Assembly (NCBI RefSeq): GCF_009914755.1
Contig: NC_060930.1
Source: the human T2T-CHM13v2.0 reference genome, Homo sapiens
Reading direction: 5' to 3' (one strand)
DNA length: 64,000 nt
The position numbers were made by a program, and so were the translations under genes. Shown here in pieces: positions 24,025 to 62,391 of the stretch. Position 1 is the first letter of the stretch. The number at the start of each line of letters is the position of its first letter. The notes beneath the pieces were generated by a model, which did not search any database, had not been told where the DNA came from, and saw nothing but the letters and a program-made list of their open reading frames with translations.

Positions 24025-25103
<1,079 letters not shown>

Positions 25104-45909: not shown

Positions 45910-46319
45910 ACCCACCTTTTCTGTAAAGTGCTGGAATACACATACGATGCCTGAAATCTCAATGTTCACTGTCCTAGTTTTTAACGAACGCTTCTGACGT
46001 TACTGGTCAGTTCTTTATTGAAATCCTTGCTCACATTTCATGCACTAATTTATCTTACTGGTGTTTCTTTGCAGTAAAAATGCGTTTATAAAGGTATACA
46101 AAATAGAAACCGAGGTTGTGACACCAAGGTTTCACTGCGTTATTTTGTGTATAGGTCCATGCTGTGTATACAAATTTATCATTAATACACAGGCTGTTTA
46201 TTCATGTGCACTTGTCAGAAAAGGGTGAAATATTAATACAGAAACGAGAGAACAAAGAAGGATAGCTGCCCATTAGCATTTCAGGGCGGGCTTTTTAAGT
46301 TTTAAAGATGACTGCATTC

Positions 46320-47335
<1,016 letters not shown>

Positions 47336-47518
47336 CCCAGGAGCAAAAACTTAGTTTTATGACCTAAATTTATAAATGGACTACACTGTAAAGCACAATT
47401 AATTATTCAACTTTAGTAGAAATCCAGTCACATTTCTCTGTAAAAAATCTCAAATCTAATTGGATCACACACCAGGCCCTATAAAGAGAAGTGATCTGTA
47501 AATCTGATATGAAAGGTC

Positions 47519-47716
47519 ATGGCCTGCACCAAGCCAACCACACGGAAGTCCACTGGTGGCAGACAGCCTCCTAAGCAGCTGGCCACCAAGGCAGCCAGCA
47601 AGAGCACTCTGGCCACCAGCAGCTTGAAGATGTCCCTCAGATATAGGCCCTGAATCATGCTGAAATTCATCGCTACCAGAAGTCACTGAGCTACTTAAGG
47701 GAAAAGCTGCCCTTTC
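47519..47716 (+). pseudogene. H3C5P: Histone H3 pseudogene, 5' half only
   Basis: [44 protein letters not shown] then [16 protein letters not shown]; TATAAA near 47481; symbol inferred from position between H3C4 and H3C6. Confidence 0.88.
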
Positions 47717-48164
47717 TTAAATGTTAGGACAAGGTTGCTGAATGAGATTATTAAAAAAATTAATGCCCCTAGGGTTCTAAATAATTGCAGTTATATGTGT
47801 TCCACTGAACAGAAGTTATTGGCATCACAAATAATTTGCATCAAAAATAATTTCTGGTGATACAAATAACAGAAATTATTTGCATCACCAGACAAAAGCC
47901 TCCAAGAAGTAACTTCGATAGTTTGATACCTTTAATCAATGGTAAATTGTGAGATGATGTAAGCACATTTCCCTGCAAACTTTGTAAAACCTATAAATTT
48001 TTTATAGTGGGATACATTCTTCCCCCTCCCTTTTTTCCTCACAAGTCTTACAATGTTTCTTAAATAAAATTTTCACTAAAACACGATTAAAATATAGCAA
48101 TTGCAAGATAAATGTCTATGAAGCCCCATAGTATAACTCCCTGACATTCTTTACTCAATCAAAT

Positions 48165-49508
48165 TGGGGCTCAGAAACAATACCCCAAAATGAAGGCCAA
48201 AGAAGCAACCTCAGAAGCAAAATTTTTCTGTGACTTTCTCCTGCCCTCTTGTCTCTCAGTCCCATTCTCCCCTGAGGCTAGACATAGAAACTAGAATTCC
48301 GGTTTCCCAAGGTGGCTTATGACAACCAGAATCCTTTTTCCCCAAAGCCAACCATAAAAACTAAAAATATTACTCTAACTTCCCTTCCAACTTTTCGTGT
48401 AAAAACTGGACACAGAGAAATTATTTGATCCACCTTGTTTAATTGCAGGTCATAAGACCCCATTCCAGAGATGGAGCTGTCCCATACCCAATACCCAGAA
48501 GGAAGGAATGCATGTTCAAAGAGGTGAGGGATGAAATGAAAATTCTAAACCCCTTTGACAGAATAATGGACCCTCCTTTGGCTAAAAGACCCCAAAAGTT
48601 TAAGTTCCCAGGCATGACAGGATGGAGGCTGCACATCCTGTTTGTTAATACCCCTCTTCCCCTTTCTAATCACTGCTAGATTTTCTCAAAGTCCGATTTG
48701 AGGGAATAATACACCGGAAAGCCCTTTTACTTACTTTATCTGGCCTCTTCCACCCTCCTCCATGGTGGTCCAGACAAGACAGATATTAAGGACCATAGAG
48801 TTTCTTGATAAATGACTGCAGGCCCACAACTGGTTGTGACCAGTCTCCTGAGAATGCAGATCATGGACTTCTGCCCTACATTTCAGTTTTATATATAGGA
48901 CCTAATTATAACTCATTTAAATGTTAAATCTTCACCCCAAAGTGATCATGGGACATATCTTACATACATGTAAACCTAATACACATCTGATTGGGTGTCC
49001 TTCATGAATATTCATAGCTCCTCCTATAACCTGTTGAATATGTATATTTCTCCAACCCAATCCTCAAAAATTCCTGTTTTATCCCTCCCTGCTTCCCTCC
49101 AAGTGCCTGTCTCTCAGCAAACCAAAGCTACCCTTCCCAGCCTGTCAGAATGGCCACCTTGCAGGCTGCAACTCTTTGAGAAATAAAGCTCCTTTGCAAA
49201 TGTATGAACCTTCTCATTCTTCAGTTGACAGAGGCCAAGAAGAGTCTAGACAAACAGGCCTTGCTGGGTTTCTCCACTCGGTTTATTAACGTTTCATCAT
49301 ACCCTTTTTATCCAATCAAATTTCTACAAGGTTGTCCATATGTTGTTGAACCTAAGCATAGAATTGGACAATTTTTCCTGTATCTTTGTGTTTTCATCCT
49401 AAAGGCTCCCTTGAAGACGTTAATAAATTTGTGTAACTTTTCTCCAATTAATCTGCCTTTTGCAAGCTAATCTTACAGCAAAGCTTCAGAGCTCGCCTTG
49501 GCTCCTAT
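48165..49508 (+). mobile_element. MER39-like ERV1 LTR, split by a MER4-group LTR
   Basis: GGGGCTCAGAAACAATACCCCAAAATGAAGGCC...; the two halves join collinearly with the copy at 59482-60097. Confidence 0.75.
48525..49230 (+). mobile_element. Solo LTR, MER4-group ERV1
   Basis: TG...CA ends; 4-bp TSD GAGG (48521-48524 and 49231-49234); AATAAA near the 3' end. Confidence 0.8.
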
Positions 49509-49769
49509 ATAATAATAAACACTTTAACTTTTTATTCTTTTTAGACTTCAAAGTAATTGACCTGATGTTCTCATCCGAGTTTTTCTTGGAGCTTATGTAG
49601 CTTCCAGGAATAGCAAATTATTTTCCAGACTTTCTTCTTTTCATGAAATGGCATTGTGCTTCCACAGTGATTTCTCTTCCCCTTTTTTTAAACACCAGAA
49701 TTAGCAGTTGTAGAGGCTGTCCCTCAAAAATATATGATCGAGGGGAAAATATTCATATAACATTTCTTT

Positions 49770-49945
49770 TTTTGTTGTTTTGTTTTTTTTTTTTTTTCAT
49801 TTTTGGGTCTTGCTCTGTTGCCCAGACTGGGTTGCAGTCTCACAATTATGACTCACTGCAGCCTCAAATTCCTAGCCTCAAGCAATCCTCCTAACTCAGC
49901 CTCCTGGGTCACTGGCATTATCGGACTGAGCCACTGTGCCCGGCT
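49770..49945 (-). mobile_element. Alu monomer (FRAM/AluJ-like)
   Basis: Antisense monomer. Confidence 0.8.
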
Positions 49946-50200
49946 AAAAGAATTTCAAATACTGTCCACTTACTGATATTTTGCTATGGAAAAATTCAAA
50001 CATCAATAATTTTGCTAGTTGCCCACCTCTTCTTGCGTCATTGAGTAATGGCTTAACAAGCCCCCTTAGTTCTCTAACACAACTGTATAGACATATAGAT
50101 GTAGATATAAATATAGATATTGATTTATTGTAAATAAAGTCCAGATGCTATAACTGGGTTCATAGAAATATATTGAATGTCCTCATTGTTTCAAGGCCTA

Positions 50201-51384
<1,184 letters not shown>

Positions 51385-52289
51385 TCCTATGGGAAATTGT
51401 GTTCAGGTATGGAAATAGTGATGGAAATTACTGATTAATACAAGTGAGCTGCTAAGTTCTTATGTAATCATGTAAATTTTGCACTGACTTCTAAAATAAA
51501 GCTTTACAAATATTTAGAGATGAGGATTATGAAAGGAACTGAAGGTAGGTTCCAATGGCAAAACACCGGATTGACAGATTTAAGAACACTGGGGAGGAAA
51601 TAGAACTATGGGGCATAAAGATGGAATTTCCTTAATGGTTCTCACTGACTGTGACCTAAAGTTTATCTTTTGATTTTGGAAACATTTTTTAGATGTAGAT
51701 ATTAACATTCTAATAATAGAAATGAAAAAACTAAAATGAAAATGAGAAAACAGAAGATAATATCAATAAACAGGTCTTGGGCCTCAGAAGATGAGATGTA
51801 GGGAGTGTGGAGAGGAAAAGCACAGAGGGTGCATAGCTCTCATTAACAAACGGCCCAGCCCACAAATACGTAATCATATTATACAAAAGGATTTCAGTTC
51901 TTCCCTTGCTTCCTATGAAACAATTTTGCCAACATACCTAACCGTTTTACCGTGATTTAAAGTGTACAGAATTTTCTTTTTCTGAAAAGGAGAGAAGCAA
52001 GGGACTCATATATATTTCAGATGTGAGATTGAAACGCACGACAATGTGTAATTTCAGTCAAGACTTGCCCACGAGTCCTAAGATAATTCAAATTTGCAAA
52101 ATAGACACTAACTTGAAAGGTGCAATTGTATCAATCCTGTGGTTAGCAGAATTTTGATGAATGCCCTAAAATAGGGCAGGTTTAACAGAATTCAGGGAAT
52201 GAGCAGGAATGCACAAAGCATCCTTTGTCTCCTCTCCACTCCAGCTTGCAGACATCCGCGGGCATTTGCGGGCAGTGATAAATTTGGTT

Positions 52290-52402
52290 TAGCCGTTTCC
52301 CCTCCCTGGAGGACGGGGGCTCCAGCATATTCGTGATGTCAATCGCCTTGGACTACATGCCAGCGTCATTGCGAACCTGCTACACTTTACAAAATAGCTT
52401 TC
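52290..52402 (-). pseudogene. Highly decayed H2B relic
   Basis: ESYFV (52402-52388); QVRNDAGM*SKAIDITN (52379-52329; 36/51 nt identical to H2BC7 [17 protein letters not shown]); TCCAGGGAG (SRE) 52310-52302. Confidence 0.7.
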
Positions 52403-52484
52403 CAATGAGAAAGAAAACCTACTGGGAAAGAAAAACAAAAAGAAACTAGACCTTGCAACGGGCACGCACGCGCACTATCCCTCT

Positions 52485-52700
52485 CTGAAATATTTATAGT
52501 ACGCTTACACAAACGCGAACTTGTAAATCAAAACTCTGCCTGAACCAAAGTAGCCAATAGATTAAAAGTATGTAAATTAGGAATTCCCAAACTGCTCTTT
52601 TTATTGGCTAGGAAAAGAACACCTTACAGGGAATCCGATAGGTTAATTCACAATAGTGTTAGGCTGTAATGTCATTCCTTAAGAATCTTTTCCAGTAAAC
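52485..52700. promoter_or_regulatory. Relic bidirectional H2B/H2A promoter
   Basis: Minus-strand TATAAATA near 52491-52498; CCAAT 52554; GTATGTAAATTAGG 52568-52581 (13/14 to the H2AC7/H2BC7 octamer context); ATTGG 52603; TTCACAAT 52647-52654. Confidence 0.65.
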
Positions 52701-52730
52701 ATTTGTTACTTTTTCAAAGTAATTGGGAGC

Positions 52731-52876
52731 TGTTGAGTGTGGAAGCGAAAACCAAGTTAAGAAGTCCTGTTATTTGGGTGAGTCCAGTTCCTATAAAAGT
52801 TCTGTTGGATGTGTCTTAAATTGTTCGGTGCACCTCAGCTCTCTCCCGCAGGGATCCGGAGAAACTGCGCCATTGT
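52731..52876 (+). pseudogene. Very decayed H2A relic (tentative)
   Basis: Short collinear H2A-like blocks GTGGAAGC, TCCAGTTCC 52793, GTGCACC 52828, CCCGCAGGG, GCGCCATTGT 52867 at the position expected from the relic promoter. Confidence 0.4.
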
Positions 52877-53439
52877 TGTCTTACAGAGAAACAACCTTCT
52901 AACACTCTCTTCGCCGCCATCTTTTTCAAGATTTTAAATTGAAAATACTTTTTTTGACGGCTCTTGCCATTACGTCTGGACGTTTTAATTTCAACAAAAC
53001 GAAATAATAGTGTTAAGTTCTTTGAGTCAAACCCGATATTACAGAGGTAGGGATTCCAGGATATTAGAATTTTACTATAACACAAATGAAACACAAAGTT
53101 CCTTATGCTTAACAGTGTATCTTAGAAAACCTTGTTTGAGTGAATTAGCCTTGTACTCTATAATGAAACGAGGAATCATTGAGAGATACTTAGGCAACGG
53201 ATTTTAAATGAGTGAATAGGGAAGGGAAAAACTTCAGGAAAATGCAGAAAAAAGCAGCGGAGATTTTGGAAAAAAAAATTCTAAAGCACTTTCTAACGCA
53301 AACACATTCGATTTTTTATAGCTAAACAGGATAACAGATCAGTCTATTAAGTTAAATGATCAATGTCTTTGCAGGTCATGGTCTACGTGAAACATCAAAG
53401 AAACCTGTAACGGAAAACGACTTGTTTGAAAGAGCCAGT

Positions 53440-54038
<599 letters not shown>

Positions 54039-54068
54039 ATTGTTTTGAGTACAAACCTTAAATCCAAA

Positions 54069-54084
54069 GGCTCTTCTCAGAGCC
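54069..54084 (+). terminator. H3C6: Histone 3' stem-loop (TCTC loop)
   Basis: GGCTCTTCTCAGAGCC; HDE GAAAAGGGCT. Confidence 0.95.
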
Positions 54085-54214
54085 AACCACTTTGTCCGTG
54101 AAAAGGGCTGTAATCCTTTGAGACGCATTAGACCACTAAACTGCACTGATCCAAATAGACATTTGAAATAGTGGCATTCAGTTCCCTCGATGCTTCATTT
54201 AAATTTCCAAATTT

Positions 54215-54756
54215 AAGCGCTCCCTCAGGTTTTCGCCTAGGGCTGGGCCTCCCTACGCTGTTCTCCATTGGTTTAGCTGGCTTTGTTTTGCTGTTCAGGC
54301 CCTCTGCTGCTTTCTTGTACATTGTTCTCGTTTTCTAAACTCCTGGCCACTTAATTGTACCCTGCTTAACCCATCCTCTTGTTTTCTGGCTCAACGCTCT
54401 TTCATGTGGTGGCCTGCATTTTAGGTCTTAACTGCATAGGCTTTCAACGCCTTGGTTTTGCCTTTCCTTGATGTTTATTTGACCTTGCCTGAGGGGCCAG
54501 CGCTTTTGATCTGCATCAGGCTGCCTTACTCCACTAGTGTTTTGAGACCCAGCTACTTGCCGGCGACGGTCGGTGCCTTGGGTGCGGTCAACGTTACTCT
54601 CTGTGCGCCTGATACTGGTCTAAGGCTAAGGTTATTAGCTGGAACACCTAGACCCGTGGCACTAACACACAGCTCTTGCAGACTTGACAGCCTTGCATAG
54701 GTTCTAAACTGCAGGAGTCAAAGCAACGAAGGTGCAGATGGGTGTGTCTCAAACCT
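54215..54756 (-). pseudogene. Decayed histone H1 relic convergent with H3C6
   Basis: AGG TTT GAG ACA (cf. MSET) at 54756; VFQLITLA (cf. VSELITKA); LGLKTLVE*GSLMQIKSAGPSGKVK at 54552-54478 (14/25 aa identical to H1-3); K/A/P-rich tail; 3' end approximate. Confidence 0.85.
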
Positions 54757-54758
54757 GA

Positions 54759-55044
<286 letters not shown>

Positions 55045-56340
55045 TAAAAGAACTTTTCAACTTTAGTAAATACCCTGTCTTAATCAAATCTCATTAAAAG
55101 TACCCCATATTTATCAACAAAACATGAAAATCCTTGGACGGCTTCAAAGTTCTTACAGAAAATATTCTGCCTTTCCTTTCCATACAAAGGCACAGCTTCG
55201 AAACTGGTAGGTGAAGGGAAGGAAAATAAGGAATTCTGTTCCGAAATCATACAGGCTGTTATTTGGAAATACAGAAGGGTGTATGTACTATATGGGATAC
55301 TGCATGCTATTTGGAAGAATTTTGTTTATTTAAACATTTCAGCAAATTTCTCAGTTTTGATATGGGGTGCAGTATTTTTAACTCATTGAGAAATTTCTAC
55401 TAACTTTTTTGAATGTGCTCTTTTCCCACTAGTTGCACTAAGGAAAGAGGTTAGTCATGTGGTAAAATTAATAGTGACAAAGCTGTAAATAGCTCTGCAG
55501 GCCAAGGTAGCCATAGTAAGAAGTCCTGGAGATTTATGGAAGAAATTTTTGTTCATGGAAGCCTGTCAGACATGAAGATGTGGGTCTTGTGAATTGGAGA
55601 TTCAGTGCGTGAGGAAAACAGCCTAACTATCCATAATTAAGGTAACTACTGTCAGATATTTGTAACATAGTGAACATCCTATTATGCTAGATAGAAGCAT
55701 TCTCTATTTGAATGTTGTTTCCTGTATCCTGTACTTTCTTTAAGATTCTAGCTCAACAAGTTTTAACCTGTATTTCTCTTACAGCTACTGGAATTCAGTA
55801 CGTGAGGACTTGGACTTGGTGGGCACAGAATGCATCTTTTTATATCATTAAATCCACCAGAACATCTAGCATGGTCATTTGCCTAAAACAAAGCCTCTGG
55901 AAATTTAGTCAAGTTGAGATGTAAAATAAAAGATTACTGAACAGAATTTAACATTGAGTGCATTCCTATTTACAAAAATAAAAGATTAGATAAAGTTTAT
56001 ATAATTTTAATATATAGTTTTTCTAAATAGGAAAAATCCACACTTATTGAGTGGCTGCAATGGGCCAGAAGTCATGCAGTATTTTATGAAGCCTCCAAAA
56101 ATGTAAGTTCAATAGTTATCTATTATCAAAAACAAATTTAAAAACTGAAACTAAGAAAATTTCAGATAGTGCTGGAGCCAAAACTTTCCCCACTAGGCAT
56201 TACTGTTTTAAATAAACAGCCTCAGCAGAATCCTCATCAGTTACTCCTGAGGACTTTATCACCTGGAAGAGCTACTAACATGTTTAATTTTTTCATACAC
56301 AATAAAATAAATGGATGTTTTAAAATTTACAGGGTCTTAG

Positions 56341-56850
56341 GCCAGGCAGGGTGGCTCATGCCTGTAATCCCAGCACTTTGGGAGGCCAAGCCAGGCAGAT
56401 CACCTAAAATCAGGAGTTCAAGACCAGCTTGGCCAATATGGATAAACCCCGTCTCTACTAAAAAAATACAAAAATTAGCCGGGCATGGTGGCACTTGCCT
56501 GTAATCCCAGCTACTTGGGATGCTGAGGCAAGGAGAATCACTTAAACCTAGGAGGCAGAGGCTGCAGTGAACTGAGACTATGCCACTCCACTCTAGGCTG
56601 GGTGACAAAGCAACATTCCATCTTAAAAAAATAATAACACCAGCCTGGCCAACATGGTGAAACACCATCTCTACTAAAAATACAAAAATTAGCTGGGCAT
56701 GGTGGCAGACACCTGTAATCCCAGCTACTCAGGAGCCTGAGGCAGAAGAATCTTTGAACCTAGGAGGCAGAGCTGGCAGTGAGCTGAGATTGCACCACTG
56801 CACTGTAGCCTGGGTGACAGGGAGAGACTCCATCTCAAATAACAATACTA
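56341..56850 (+). mobile_element. AluS (56341-56635) followed by a 5'-truncated Alu (56640-56850)
   Basis: Alu motifs. Confidence 0.88.
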
Positions 56851-57650
56851 ATAATAAGAAAATGAACTTTACAGGGTCTTATATGATTGTGAAGTTCTAT
56901 TATATTATAATTAGTACTGCAAATTGCACAGAAATGTAACTGATGTACATACAGGAAAATATGACATTAACACTGACAAATTTTAGCCTTTCTGCATACT
57001 ATTCAAATAGTAGCCTTGATTTAACCACACATACACAGGCAACTTTTTTCAAAGGCATACACTGAGATAGTAGTAAATAATACCAGATGTCTTTAAAATA
57101 AATTGTGATTTTATTTGGGGAAGATCTCAAATCTGACCCCTGTAAGATCATACTTTCTATGTACTTGTTGGTACACTATATAGTATATATCCATTTCACA
57201 GTTACATAGTTGCCTGCAAGTACTTATAATTAAAATAAAACAAGTATGTAATCTCTGAATAACCAATAGCTTCTTCATATTATAAAGATAATAGCTAAAA
57301 CTCAAGACAATTCAGAAATCCCATTTTATTATTTCTCCATACTCACCCGACTCGACCTGCCAACAGTAAATATTGATATGTAACATTTTGGAATTTGCAA
57401 GGCAAAGGTGAAATTTTTTTTCTTTGTTTTTATTTTGTAGTTGCCCCCACTAAAAATTGTATATATATAAAATGGTATACTTCCGAAGATAAGGTAGTCT
57501 GTAAATCAGGCCATGGAAACAAGGGTCATGAAAGGGGCAGAGAAATTTGTTACTCTTCTTTTCCCACACAGGAAAACAGAAAATGAAACCACTGAATTTG
57601 ATGAGTATCTGACAATAATGTAACCCAACTGATGGAATTTTTTAATTCAG

Positions 57651-57674
57651 ACACACACACACACACACACACAC
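57651..57674. repeat. (CA)n microsatellite
   Basis: Direct reading. Confidence 0.9.
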
Positions 57675-57932
57675 GCCCCTAGAGTAGTGGAAAATAAGAC
57701 AAATGCTCTAGAGTTCAGTTTAGTTAATGGGAGAAAATAATAGATGCATTAAAATTTTTCTATTGATAATAATTGTTCTCAACTATTAAATGTCATGAAA
57801 GCACATTTTCAGAGATAAGTTGATGTTTTGAATTAGAGGGATTTTTGCATGGAGATGTAATTTCAGAAGGAATTGGAAGTATTAGAAAGATTCTCACAGG
57901 GAATTGTTCCTGAACAAAGTTGTAAAAAATAC

Positions 57933-57972
57933 TAATAATAATAATAATAATAATAAAGAAGAAGAAGAAGAA
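57933..57972. repeat. (AAT)n(GAA)n compound microsatellite
   Basis: Direct reading. Confidence 0.9.
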
Positions 57973-58120
57973 ATAGAAAGATTACATTGTTATAGTGTCT
58001 GTGAGTGCCAGCAGAGAGTATTATGAAAAGGGGCTAAGATGCTACAGGGCTTTCCCTTGAACCTATGAGAAGCCAGTGACTTTTTTCATAAGGCATATTT
58101 GGTTTTTGTTTTTGAAAATG

Positions 58121-58474
<354 letters not shown>

Positions 58475-59481
58475 CTAGAGAAATTAGGGAAATAGTAAGC
58501 ATTGGAATAATCCCAGCTATGAGAGAATGAAGAGAGAATGTAGACGGGAGAATATGTCAGAATTATTGAGGATTCTTTAAAAATCAACCTGATTTAGTGA
58601 CTGTGTTAACAGGGATGATTGAGGCCTCCCCACAATACCATGAAATTCTGCATCCTCCAGTTAAAGTAGTGACTTCAGGTTGATCCTAAAAATTACCTTT
58701 GTGTCAGACCTATGCCATACACATAAGTACTCTCCAACAGCTAAGATAATATGAAAATGCCCTTCATAACTTCCATGCTAAGACACTGTTAGTTTTCTTT
58801 ACCAATCTCAAGATATTCATTATAACTGCTACCAAAATTTTAAGATATGGAGAAAGATTTAAACAAGTTCAGATTTCCTTGAAAACAAGTGCATGTCCTC
58901 CGTGGCAAATGAATATGAACATGAATTTATATAAATCAGAGCAACTCTGGAAGATCATTGATTGAATCATCACATTTAATTGCTTCTCTTGCATTCCAAA
59001 CACATTGTGAAATGGATACTTCACAACGGGCCGGAAACAGAAATACATAAATTCTGCTTATTTCTCAATGAGCCTAAAAAGGAACCGGAAAATACCACTC
59101 CTTTTCCAGTTGATGTAACAGAATTGAAGCAGCGTTAAGAATGATTCCAGAAATCAAGAAACTTGTTTGAGACCTAGGTCCACCATTTACTGACAGCAAA
59201 TGGTCATTTCTTGCCATTTCACCTTTCTAAGCCCCAAGTTTCTTAACAGTAAATCAAGCATTTTAGCTATACCTGATATAAATGCATTGTAACTGCCCAA
59301 GTGAGGCAGTTAAGTAAGTGCTTTGTAACAGTAAGAAACTAGAGGTATGTTATAGTCATTTGGACTGCTCTTGCGGAATGCCACATTCCCCACCTAATTC
59401 TCTTATTCCTTATCACTTTTCATCAAAAGCCTAAATCATGTCATTCTGGGTACTAAAGACCTCCCAGATCTCTTCTCCGCA

Positions 59482-60097
59482 TTGGGAATTGGAAAATAAT
59501 ACCCCAAAACGAAGTCCTTAGAAGCAGAAGTGACCTCCTGCTATCCTTTGGCCTCTCATCCTCCATTGAGGCTACACATAATAACTAGAATCCCTCTTCC
59601 CCAAGGTGGTTACTGAAACTAGAACCCCTTTTTCTTCAAAGCCAGCCATAAAACCTAAAAATCTTACTGTAACTTTTCCGCCTCCTTTCTGTGTAAAAGC
59701 TAGCCATAAGAAAGTATATGTCTTACGTTGTTTGGCTGTAGGTCATAAGACCCTCCCTCATTCCAGAGAGGGTCCTCTAGAATGAGGAAGGAATACCCAG
59801 AAGGAAAGAATCTTGCCAGAGGCCAAGAAGAGTCTAGACACAGAGGCCTTGCTATGTTTCCCCAGTCTATTAGCATTAGATGACACCCTTTTTATCCAAT
59901 CACAGTTCTACATGGCAGTTGGTACTTTGTTGAACCTAAGCATAAAAATGGACAGTTTCCCCTGTACCTCTGGGCCTTCATTGTGAAGGTTCCCATGTCA
60001 CATAAACCTATGATGAAGTTTGACTTTTCTATTAATCTGCCTTTTTTCCGTTGATTTTCAGTGAACTTTCGGAGGGTGAAGTTTTGCTCACCCCTAC
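59482..60097 (+). mobile_element. MER39-like ERV1 solo LTR
   Basis: AATACCCCAAAACGAAG...AAAGCCAGCCATAAAACCTAAAAAT...GAGGCCAAGAAGAGTCTAGACA...CCCCTACA. Confidence 0.75.
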
Positions 60098-61555
60098 ATA
60101 CCTGTATTTTTCACTCATTTTCAAAAAGATTATTTTGAATAAATATTTCAAATCCTCCCATTTATTCAGATCCCCTTCTCAATCAAGCCACTCTCATACA
60201 GGGAGGTATTTTGGCTTTCTCTACAAAGAAGAAATTGTGTGATGTAGCCGTGGTTCCCAAAAAATTAAACTCCTGCTTATAACTAGAAAGATGTCACAGG
60301 CTACATCCTTTTCTTTGTGGGGAGGGAGGCAAATAATAATGTAAAATATAATAAAATATTAACTAATAAGCAGAATGTAAACAAAGAAGTAAGATTAAGA
60401 GGTATTATAATCATGAGGGATTTATAGTATTTGGTCCCACTGCAAACTTGTTCAAGAGTTCATGACTTGTTTTGTGCTATGTATTCTGGAGATTCTGGAA
60501 ATCTATAGATGCCTTCTCAAAACCATGTTTTTAAAAAATACTTATACAGGGTAAGAAAGGTAGTGACACTAAATTTTTTTTTCTTAAAGTCTGTATATGT
60601 GCTTTAGTTACACATCAAATAATAAGATCTAGCAGCAAGTATAATGTTGGCTTGAAAGGTTCACAATTAGTGTAAACTATTTCAAGACACCTGTAATAAG
60701 TACAAAGTGATATGAAAATATCTATGATTATCATTGATGTGAAATCCAGTGATTAGCTGCCTGTACTCACAAAGGAAATAAGCAAATTGCATTTAGGATT
60801 TGTGAAAATGTAATTTTTTCCCATCTAGAGTCCCATAACCATCTGTAGAAATCAGATTTTGTCGAGATTTCTCCGTACTGTTAAGTGGGCTTTTCTAAAA
60901 TCAAAAACAAAACAAACAAAAAATAACCTCAGCCTCCCAAATACAATGTAAACAGTAGTACATCCAAGTCAGCCCAACTTCCTATAGCCCATTTATTTGT
61001 CCTGGTAACCCCAATTTCAGGCTTCTTCCTCCCTTCTCCAAGTTTTTTCATTTATTTTTCCCTCTCTATTTCTTATCTAATCACCAAATATGTATTGGAT
61101 AGCTAACTCTAGCTCCCTGGTTCAGCTCAATCTGTGAGAAAGCAATTTGGGAAAAGAAGCAGATTATAAGCTGACAGAGGTTCCTTTCATACTTTTTACT
61201 ATCTCTCAGCATCAGGGTGGTAGCAATACTTGTGCAGATTGACGCAGAATGACAAGGTGAGTAGTCTCCAAAAAGAGAATTCCATTTGGAGAATTCCATC
61301 TGAGGGGGAGGTGGAAAAAAAACAGGCTTTTCGACTACGTCCCAGCATACACAACTGTTAATATCGCAACCTGATTGGTGAAAAATTTTCTCTCGGAAAA
61401 ACCACGCAAATAAAAATCTAAGAATACGTTCTGATTGGTTAATTCAGCAGGCTCTGCAAACCAACAGAAAAAGCAAGTTTTACAAAACTGAGCCAGAGGC
61501 TATGATGAACTATCCCTCCGATTGGCTTAATACAAGAATTGCATTTTTTTCTAAC

Positions 61556-62391
61556 ATTACCTGGACGTGGGAAGCAAGACCACACTCGCGCCAAAAGCAA
61601 GACCTGCTTTGCCACGCGGGCCTACAGTTGCCAGTAGGGCTAATACACCGCGTCCTCCGCAAATACAGCTACTCCGAGCGGGTTGGACCAGCATGCTAGT
61701 GTTACCTGGCGGCAGTGCTAGGAGGTTAAGAGTAGGCAGAAATAAATGAACAAGCAAGAGAGCCCCTGGGAAAATAAGTCCTGGAGACGCTGGCCACTGA
61801 CAGAAAAAGACAATGGGCACACTTTTTATTTTGAGACGGAGTCTCGCTCTATCGCCCAGGCCGGAGTGCAAGTGGCGCGATCTCGGCTTACAACTTCCGC
61901 CTCCCGGGTTCAAGTGATTTTCTACCTCAGCCCCCAAGTAGCTGGAATTACAGGCGCGCGGCACCACGCCTGACTAATTTTTGTATTTTTTTTTAGCAGA
62001 GATGGGGCTTCACCATGTTCTTCAGGCTGGCCTCGAACTCCTGACCTCGTGATGCGCCCGCCTCGGCCTCCCAAAATGCTGGGATTACAGGAGAGCCACC
62101 TCGTCACGCAGTGCAGCCCCCACACTATTTACAAATACAGTACCTGAGGGCCGATATCCCAAAGCTAAGGCTTATCAAAGGCCTGCGAAAAGACAGACAC
62201 CGGGCACCACCAGCAGTTGGCCATTCTCAACGACCAGCTGCACAAGATCGTGGGCCGGAAGCACCTTGGGCATGCCACGTACTGCTCACAACCAGGACGG
62301 GATGTGCTCAGGAAGTCACCTCAACGCTAAAGTAAACTAAAGCATTTACACCACATCCCTGTGCCAGAAATAAAATTTTTTCAGGGCCACT
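61556..62391 (+). pseudogene. H2AC9P: Histone H2A pseudogene interrupted by a 416-bp insertion
   Basis: GGACGTGGGAAGCAA; HAGLQLPVGLIHRVLRKYSYSERVG; resumes at 62141 with TACCTGAGGGCCGATATC; half stem-loop TTTTCAGGGCCAC; ATG lost; upstream ATTGG boxes. Confidence 0.88.
61823..62120 (-). mobile_element. AluS inside the H2A pseudogene insertion
   Basis: TSD-like CACACTTTTT 61818-61827 / CACACTATTT 62121-62130. Confidence 0.9.

What the first reader, a model, noticed from the sequence alone, without database searches (positions are those of the whole stretch)
54215..54756. Decayed H1 gene tail-to-tail with H3C6, invisible in the ORF track
Seen on the minus strand: AGG TTT GAG ACA CAC CCA TCT GCA CCT (R/F-E-T-H-P-S-A-P, cf. 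MSETAPAAP with ATG>AGG), KAVKSARAV...ATG, VFQLITLA (cf. VSELITKA), a deletion over [10 protein letters not shown], then LGLKTLVE*GSLMQIKSAGPSGKVK (14/25 aa identical to H1-3 in this window), followed by a K/A/P-rich tail. I recall only H1-12P being named in this interval, so this relic may be unannotated; that needs checking. Inference: a lost somatic H1 subtype gene.
Basis: seen in the sequence. Interest (0 to 1): 0.7.

Follow-up and report, generated by a model that had tools for sequence, protein, structure and literature searches.

The report
Unnamed dead linker-histone gene beside H3C6
A heavily broken copy of an H1 linker-histone gene, missing from the RefSeq and HGNC lists checked, lies tail-to-tail with human H3C6; it is likely a long-dead sister of H1-12 with no present function, a small fossil of how the histone cluster evolved.

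Summary
The relic is real. The H1-3 coding sequence aligns to the minus strand at 54753-54298 (E 1.5e-9, 31.6 bits; best of 200 shuffled queries 5.5 bits), a mammalian H1 profile gives E 2.4e-14, and Pfam matches only Linker_histone. It is dead: start codon lost, about 8 stops and 15 frameshifts, a 27-base globular-domain deletion, no H1 promoter boxes, no stem-loop. It is not H1-3-like. The nearest human paralogue is H1-4, and profiles favour the H1-12 type by 5.8 bits; 0 of 64 matched decays of H1-1 to H1-5 reached that margin. It is at least as decayed as H1-12P. No row exists in RefSeq (hub table) or the HGNC/VGNC H1 lists for eight species; HIST1H1PS2 is listed beside H1-1, about 210 kb away. 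At 45% identity over aligned codons it misses HGNC's 50% rule. It lies antisense within the long 3' UTR of an H3C6 isoform. A mirror duplication with H1-12P/H3C4 is only weakly supported. GENCODE and mammalian orthologues could not be checked. Verdict: new member of a known kind, modest interest.

The parts
54225..54756 (-). H1 pseudogene body (former coding region; 3' end approximate)
   Evidence: nhmmer alignments; lesion counts
54668..54756 (-). Decayed N-terminal domain: start codon position reads AGG; A-x-K-S motif of H1-4/H1-12 type
54478..54647 (-). Decayed globular domain with a 27-base deletion near 54557; the best-kept block is 54552-54478
   Evidence: Pfam Linker_histone E 4.2e-4 for residues 3-25 of 54552-54427
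54225..54477 (-). Decayed C-terminal tail with large deletions; V-A-x-S remnant at 54350-54339
54814..55029 (-). Partial Alu-like insertion with A-rich tail and a 16-base target-site duplication (2 mismatches), about 60 bases upstream of the dead start
   Evidence: 81-83% identity to repeats elsewhere in the window; duplication; the name Alu is recalled, no repeat library was searched
53608..54089 (+). H3C6, convergent neighbour; stem-loop at 54069; stop-to-stop distance to the relic about 190 bases
   Evidence: hub annotation
54090..55946 (+). Extended 3' UTR of the long H3C6 isoform, which contains the relic antisense; poly(A)-signal hexamer near 55925
   Evidence: hub annotation (exon 53375-55946); hexamer scan; PMC5100578 passages

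Best explanation
This is a broken H1 linker-histone gene of the HIST1 cluster that likely arose by local duplication as a sister of H1-12, likely died in place early in placental history, and likely has no function today. Shown: H1 homology over the former coding region, loss of start, reading frame, promoter boxes and stem-loop, and a convergent position about 190 bases from the H3C6 stop. Inferred: it was once a replication-dependent gene with its own promoter and stem-loop; it was redundant beside seven other cluster H1 genes (birth-and-death evolution); after inactivation it decayed neutrally, took an insertion where its promoter would have been, and is now read only passively, antisense, when H3C6 transcripts pass their stem-loop and use a distal poly(A) site.
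For: Homology with shuffled and reversed controls. Lesions against H1-4: 157 of 219 codons aligned, 71 identical, 8 stops, 15 of 25 gaps not a multiple of three; these counts depend on the alignment. No ATG frame over 25 codons on the minus strand. H1 promoter profile hits H1-12P (E 5.6e-10) but not the relic, with or without the insertion; best stem-loop match 8 of 16 mismatches against 4 for H1-12P. First and second codon positions of the globular region differ from H1-4 at 39 of 135 sites, against at most 3.6% for H1-2, H1-3 and H1-5, so constraint is gone. Subtype: H1-4 50.7 bits against at most 31.6 for the other five human paralogues. Group profiles give H1-12 49.2, H1-4 43.4, H1-2 41.6, H1-3 38.5; of 64 score-matched decays of H1-1 to H1-5, 2 chose H1-12 and none reached a 5.8-bit margin, while 7 of 18 further-decayed H1-12P copies chose it and 3 reached the margin. 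The N-terminal plus tail motif pair occurs in 14 of 18 H1-12-type, 0 of 6 H1-4, 0 of 14 H1-3, 2 of 10 H1-2, 1 of 5 H1-5 and 0 of 7 non-placental proteins. H1-12P has the same tail-to-tail layout with H3C4, about 225 bases stop to stop.
Against: The H1-12 group was assembled by name and motif around one named anchor (cattle H1.12, P0130), not by synteny, and the quick tree does not resolve it as one clade. It is the broadest profile and may attract any old placental H1. The motif pair was chosen after seeing the relic. H1-12P itself does not align significantly to the relic (best E 0.07). Promoter and stem-loop are absent, so an in-place gene origin is inferred from position. Substitution load in the globular region equals that of H1-12P (0.289 against 0.279), whose orthologue is still coding in dog, cat, horse and cattle, so an early death is not proven.
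Confidence: 0.68

Rival explanations
1. It is a dead in-place H1 gene, but a copy of H1-4 or of an extinct stem-placental somatic H1 rather than an H1-12 sister.
For: Best human DNA match is H1-4; H1-12 and H1-4 are not separated in the protein tree; decayed H1-4 was called H1-12 in 2 of 17 simulations.
Against: Those two margins were 0.3 and 2.6 bits against 5.8 observed. The tail remnant fits the valine-bearing motif, and none of 6 H1-4 proteins carries both motifs. H1-12P also scores best with H1-4 among human genes.
Confidence: 0.22
2. It is a processed (retroposed) copy of an H1 mRNA that landed in the cluster.
For: No promoter boxes and no stem-loop are detectable.
Against: No poly(A) tract follows the 3' end. 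A whole-genome protein search returned 12 matches among 48 candidates and showed no scatter of somatic-H1 copies, though it missed this relic too. Insertion into this cluster, in the same layout as H1-12P/H3C4, would be a large coincidence.
Confidence: 0.04
3. The relic has been co-opted: as part of the polyadenylated H3C6 3' UTR it pairs with H1 mRNAs or acts as a regulatory element.
For: It lies antisense inside an annotated exon, and H3C6 was the one replication-dependent H3 gene found as poly(A) mRNA in differentiated human tissue (PMC5100578 passages). CpG observed/expected is 0.45 and GC 50%, above the downstream flank.
Against: The longest exact match to any of six human cluster H1 coding sequences is 13 bases; the isoform is about 1 FPKM; H1-12P and H2AC9P keep CpG as well or better.
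Confidence: 0.05
4. Chance resemblance in lysine/alanine-like, purine-rich sequence.
For: Protein-level E-values alone are weak (0.028), and the Pfam score is below the family cut-off (20.9 against 22.4).
Against: Colinear N-terminus, globular domain and tail; 26 bits above the best of 200 composition-matched shuffles.
Confidence: 0.01

Closest known systems
H1-12P (formerly HIST1H1PS1), window 24025-about 25075
   Same: Dead cluster H1 gene, tail-to-tail with an H3 gene at about 200 bases, same N-terminal type, similar substitution load in the globular region.
   Different: H1-12P keeps ATG, CCAAT box, H1 box and a stem-loop remnant and scores 169 against 49 bits. It is named and has coding orthologues in dog, cat, horse and cattle. 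No orthologue of the relic is named.
H1-4 (H1.4)
   Same: Best-scoring human paralogue at DNA level, 50.7 bits.
   Different: H1-4 is intact; the relic shares 71 of 157 aligned residues and its tail remnant fits the valine-bearing motif.
In-situ histone pseudogenes of HIST1 (H3C5P, H2AC9P, H2AC10P)
   Same: Pseudogenisation in place is described as a feature of these clusters (PMC9526256 section 10).
   Different: Those are better preserved and named after coding orthologues.
HIST1H1PS2 (old symbol)
   Same: A second H1 pseudogene symbol once used in this cluster.
   Different: Listed beside HIST1H1A (H1-1) in a table of PMC11484728, about 210 kb from this site. Near H1-1 my scans find an H3 relic and no H1 relic.

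Membership tests
Linker histone H1 family (by descent) | Homology to the H1 globular domain | tested here: met
   nhmmer E 1.5e-9 to 2.4e-14; Pfam PF00538 E 4.2e-4, the only family hit, but 20.9 bits against a cut-off of 22.4 for a 23-residue piece
Linker histone H1 family (by descent) | N-terminal, globular and basic tail regions in order | tested here: met
   Colinear alignment over profile positions 3-614 of about 665; tail weakly aligned
Functional replication-dependent H1 gene | Open reading frame with start codon | tested here: not met
Functional replication-dependent H1 gene | TATA, CCAAT and H1-box promoter | tested here: not met
   none at the expected spacing; promoter profile finds H1-12P only
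Functional replication-dependent H1 gene | 3' stem-loop | tested here: not met
   Best match 8 of 16 mismatches
H1-12 lineage | Sequence closer to H1-12 proteins than to H1-1 to H1-5 | tested here: inconclusive
   Favoured by 5.8 bits and by a motif pair, but the group is not defined by synteny and is unresolved in the tree
H1-12 lineage | Orthologous position of H1-12 (next to H3C4) | tested here: not met
   That position is held by H1-12P; the relic can only be a paralogue
HGNC-nameable pseudogene | [quoted passage not shown] | tested here: not met
   45% over 157 aligned codons; H1-12P 51% over 171
Unitary or lineage-lost gene | Coding orthologue at the same position in another mammal | not testable with these tools
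   No mammalian genomes other than the window's are held; protein hits carry no context
Processed pseudogene | Poly(A) tail and target-site duplications | tested here: inconclusive
   No A-tract seen after the 3' end, but such marks would have eroded at this age

The most novel reading that the evidence does not exclude
The relic marks an eighth cluster H1 locus, an H1-12 sister made in an old inverted block duplication, that is still coding in some mammals; some database 'H1.4-like' proteins of afrotherians or bats could be its orthologues rather than H1-12. Aardvark and elephant-shrew 'H1.4-like' proteins were the top 2 of 126 in frameshift-aware scoring (94 and 89 against 76 for human H1-3), although the afrotherian profile did not win at DNA level (40.9 against 47.2).
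Probability: 0.15. Interest if true: 0.55.

Novelty: new member of a known kind. Interest (0 to 1): 0.3.

Why it matters
It adds an eighth H1 locus to the map of the HIST1 cluster and is direct evidence of birth-and-death turnover of somatic linker histones in the placental lineage. It gives curators a fixed position at which to look for an unnamed coding H1 in other mammals. It also explains the origin of part of the long H3C6 3' UTR. It is unlikely to matter for human cell function.

Tried and rejected
H1-3 as parent: scores below H1-4 and H1-12. Identity with HIST1H1PS2: different place. A stem-loop-like run near 54110 on the minus strand: it is the reverse complement of the purine-rich element after the H3C6 stem-loop, which aligns in the plus sense to H1 3' ends, so it was not counted. 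Mirror duplication of [H1-12P, H3C4, H2AC7, H2BC7]: the H2AC7/H2BC7 and H2AC8/H2BC8 promoters are the best of 6 pairs (z 9.0, next 8.4), but H3C4-H3C6 tie for 4th of 15 pairs in synonymous similarity, the H1-H3 spacers share nothing (z -0.9), H3C5P lies between, and H1-1 is also tail-to-tail with an H3 relic; left at about 0.3. Dating by substitutions: 0.289 corresponds to roughly 0.3-0.55 changes per site in simulation, too wide to order it against H1-12P. Protein tree of 123 rows (13 chimeric, fish or start-less rows dropped; only the quick search finished) did not resolve H1-4 from H1-12. A protein search with the best relic fragment found 6 candidates and none at E<=10, which is uninformative. 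The leucine-lysine-threonine-leucine match to aardvark is one site, shared by 4 of 126 proteins, and was not used. The relic DNA has a single match in the genome, itself.

Full report
1. Observation. The 14/25 block is exact but weak alone (tblastn E 0.028). At DNA level the H1-3 coding sequence aligns from position 4 to 568 with 54753-54298 (E 1.5e-9, 31.6 bits), while 100 codon-shuffled and 100 block-shuffled queries reach at most 1.6 and 5.5 bits. A profile of the six human cluster H1 genes run over 264 kb (chr6:25.87-26.134 Mb) finds the five intact H1 genes in that stretch, H1-12P in three pieces, and this site (E 8e-11); nothing else passes E 0.1, and the reversed sequence gives 6.6 bits at best. 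A further 10 kb held no H1 hit above 6 bits. The rest of HIST1 was not scanned. A 42-residue read-through fragment matches only Pfam Linker_histone (E 4.2e-4, below the curated cut-off); a second 24-residue fragment matched nothing.

2. Anatomy. The start position reads AGG. Against H1-4, 157 of 219 codons align, 71 are identical, 8 are stops, and 15 of 25 gaps break the frame; the counts depend on the alignment. A 27-base deletion removes the middle of the globular domain. TATA, CCAAT and H1 boxes are found at the usual spacing in the six intact genes (H1-1 lacks the exact H1 box), CCAAT and H1 box in H1-12P, and none in the relic; a promoter profile finds H1-12P at E 5.6e-10 and nothing at the relic. 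An Alu-like piece with a target-site duplication sits about 60 bases upstream. No stem-loop remains. The relic's end is about 190 bases from the H3C6 stop, and the whole relic lies antisense in the 53375-55946 exon of the long H3C6 isoform (hub table). Lyons et al. (PMC5100578, passages read) report HIST1H3E as the one replication-dependent H3 gene detected as poly(A) mRNA in differentiated human tissue, at about 1 FPKM.

3. Which H1. Among human paralogues H1-4 scores 50.7 bits, H1-3 31.6, H1-2 24.1, H1-5 17.5, H1-1 9.0 and H1-6 8.1. Two searches gave 130 H1 proteins, mostly mammalian, including cattle H1.12 (only the best 120 of 2278 and of 3221 hits were listed). I sorted 58 non-primate proteins into seven groups by name and motif, back-translated them into profiles and scored the relic: H1-12-type 49.2, H1-4 43.4, H1-2 41.6, non-placental 39.4, H1-3 38.5, H1-5 36.4, H1-1 28.8. 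Of 240 simulated decays, 82 fell in the matched 30-65 bit band and only those were counted. Of 64 from H1-1 to H1-5, 2 chose H1-12 (margins 0.3 and 2.6). Of 18 from H1-12P, 7 chose it and 3 had margins of 5.8 or more. A motif pair seen in the relic occurs in 14 of 18 H1-12-type proteins and 3 of 42 others, but was picked after the fact. Against this, the tree leaves H1-4 and H1-12 unresolved, the H1-12 profile is the broadest, and H1-12P does not align significantly with the relic. An H1-12 sister is favoured, not proven.

4. Age. First and second codon positions in the globular region differ from H1-4 at 39 of 135 sites, H1-12P at 43 of 154, and the intact H1-2, H1-3 and H1-5 at 1-4%. Simulation puts the relic near 0.4 changes per site with a wide range. 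It has more stops, a lower profile score and has lost the flanking signals that H1-12P keeps, so it likely died earlier. H1-12 is coding in dog, cat, horse and cattle, and none of the seven VGNC species has a further cluster H1 named, which fits death before or near the boreoeutherian split (inference).

5. Origin. The layout H1-12P to H3C4, then H2AC7/H2BC7, is mirrored by relic to H3C6, then H2AC8/H2BC8. Support is thin: the two H2A/H2B promoters are the closest of 6 pairs (z 9.0 against 8.4), but the H3 genes and spacers are not specially alike, H3C5P and an H2B relic intervene, and H1-1 also faces an H3 relic. I give the mirror model about 0.3; local duplication of some form is the likely origin.

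6. What is known. The hub's RefSeq table has no row here other than the H3C6 exon. Seal et al. 2022 (PMC9526256: passages, section 10, and searches of both supplements; Figure 1 not visible, and it marks some unnamed genes) list H1-1 to H1-6 and H1-12(P) as the only cluster H1 genes in human and seven other mammals, with no H1-11, H1-13 or H1-14 in the supplements. HIST1H1PS2 appears in 1 paper of the library, beside HIST1H1A (PMC11484728, one passage). Searches for 'H1 pseudogene' with 'histone gene cluster' and 'human' (0 papers), HIST1H1PS1 (6, listings only), H1 subtypes/H1.12 (11), unannotated histone pseudogenes (158, 20 listed), cluster duplication (4) and unitary pseudogenes with Zoonomia (0) showed no description of this site. 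Passages of PMC13525598, PMC13396413 and 10.1101/720235 were read and did not mention it; the last quotes HGNC's 50%-over-50% rule, which the relic misses at 45%. The older mapping papers (Albig and Doenecke 1997, Marzluff 2002; recalled, not seen), GENCODE and the preprint's supplements could not be checked.

7. Verdict. A real, apparently unnamed, non-coding fossil of a cluster H1 gene. It descends from the H1 family and works like other in-situ histone pseudogenes, that is, likely not at all. It fails every test for a functional replication-dependent gene. New member of a known kind; interest 0.3, rising to about 0.55 if a coding orthologue exists in another mammal (probability about 0.15).

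Noticed in passing
window 52403-52329, minus strand: Unannotated H2B fragment (profile positions 105-192, E 5.5e-5 in 264 kb), divergent from H3C6 and just below the upstream exon 52650-52777 of the long H3C6 isoform. It could be the human remnant of H2BC25, which PMC9526256 lists in dog and cat with no human orthologue and places after H2BC8.
   Followed up: partly
window 24025-25075, plus strand: H1-12P is annotated only to 24231, but its 3' half continues at 24734-25062 beyond a roughly 490-base insert holding an Alu-like element (24361-24657); a stem-loop remnant lies at 25088.
   Followed up: yes
window 61561-62335, plus strand: H2AC9P is annotated to 61720, but its 3' half continues at 62139-62335 beyond an Alu-like element (E 2.9e-9), tail-to-tail with H1-3.
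   Followed up: partly
G000:C6:25882321-25882546, plus strand (locus L015): Decayed H3 gene tail-to-tail with H1-1 (E 2.9e-25), about where the old symbol HIST1H1PS2 is listed; no H1 relic was found there. An H2A relic lies at about 25885513-25885641 (E 2.1e-14). Their annotation status was not checked.
   Followed up: partly
window 46000-62000: No H4 relic was detected at E<=3, so H4C19 of dog and cat left no detectable trace between H4C5 and H4C6 by this scan.
   Followed up: partly
window 54814-55029: The partial Alu-like insertion keeps many CpGs (11 in the 250-base bin from 54750, observed/expected 1.0), which suggests low germline methylation here (inference).
   Followed up: no
3' flanks of H3C1/H3C7 and of H2BC3/H2BC8: These pairs share strongly similar sequence beyond the stem-loop (z 21.6 and 13.8); shared repeats were not excluded.
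   Followed up: no
L011, G000:C6:147138460-147138693: A weak H1 globular-domain match outside the clusters (E 0.0013, 35% identity), identity not examined.
   Followed up: no
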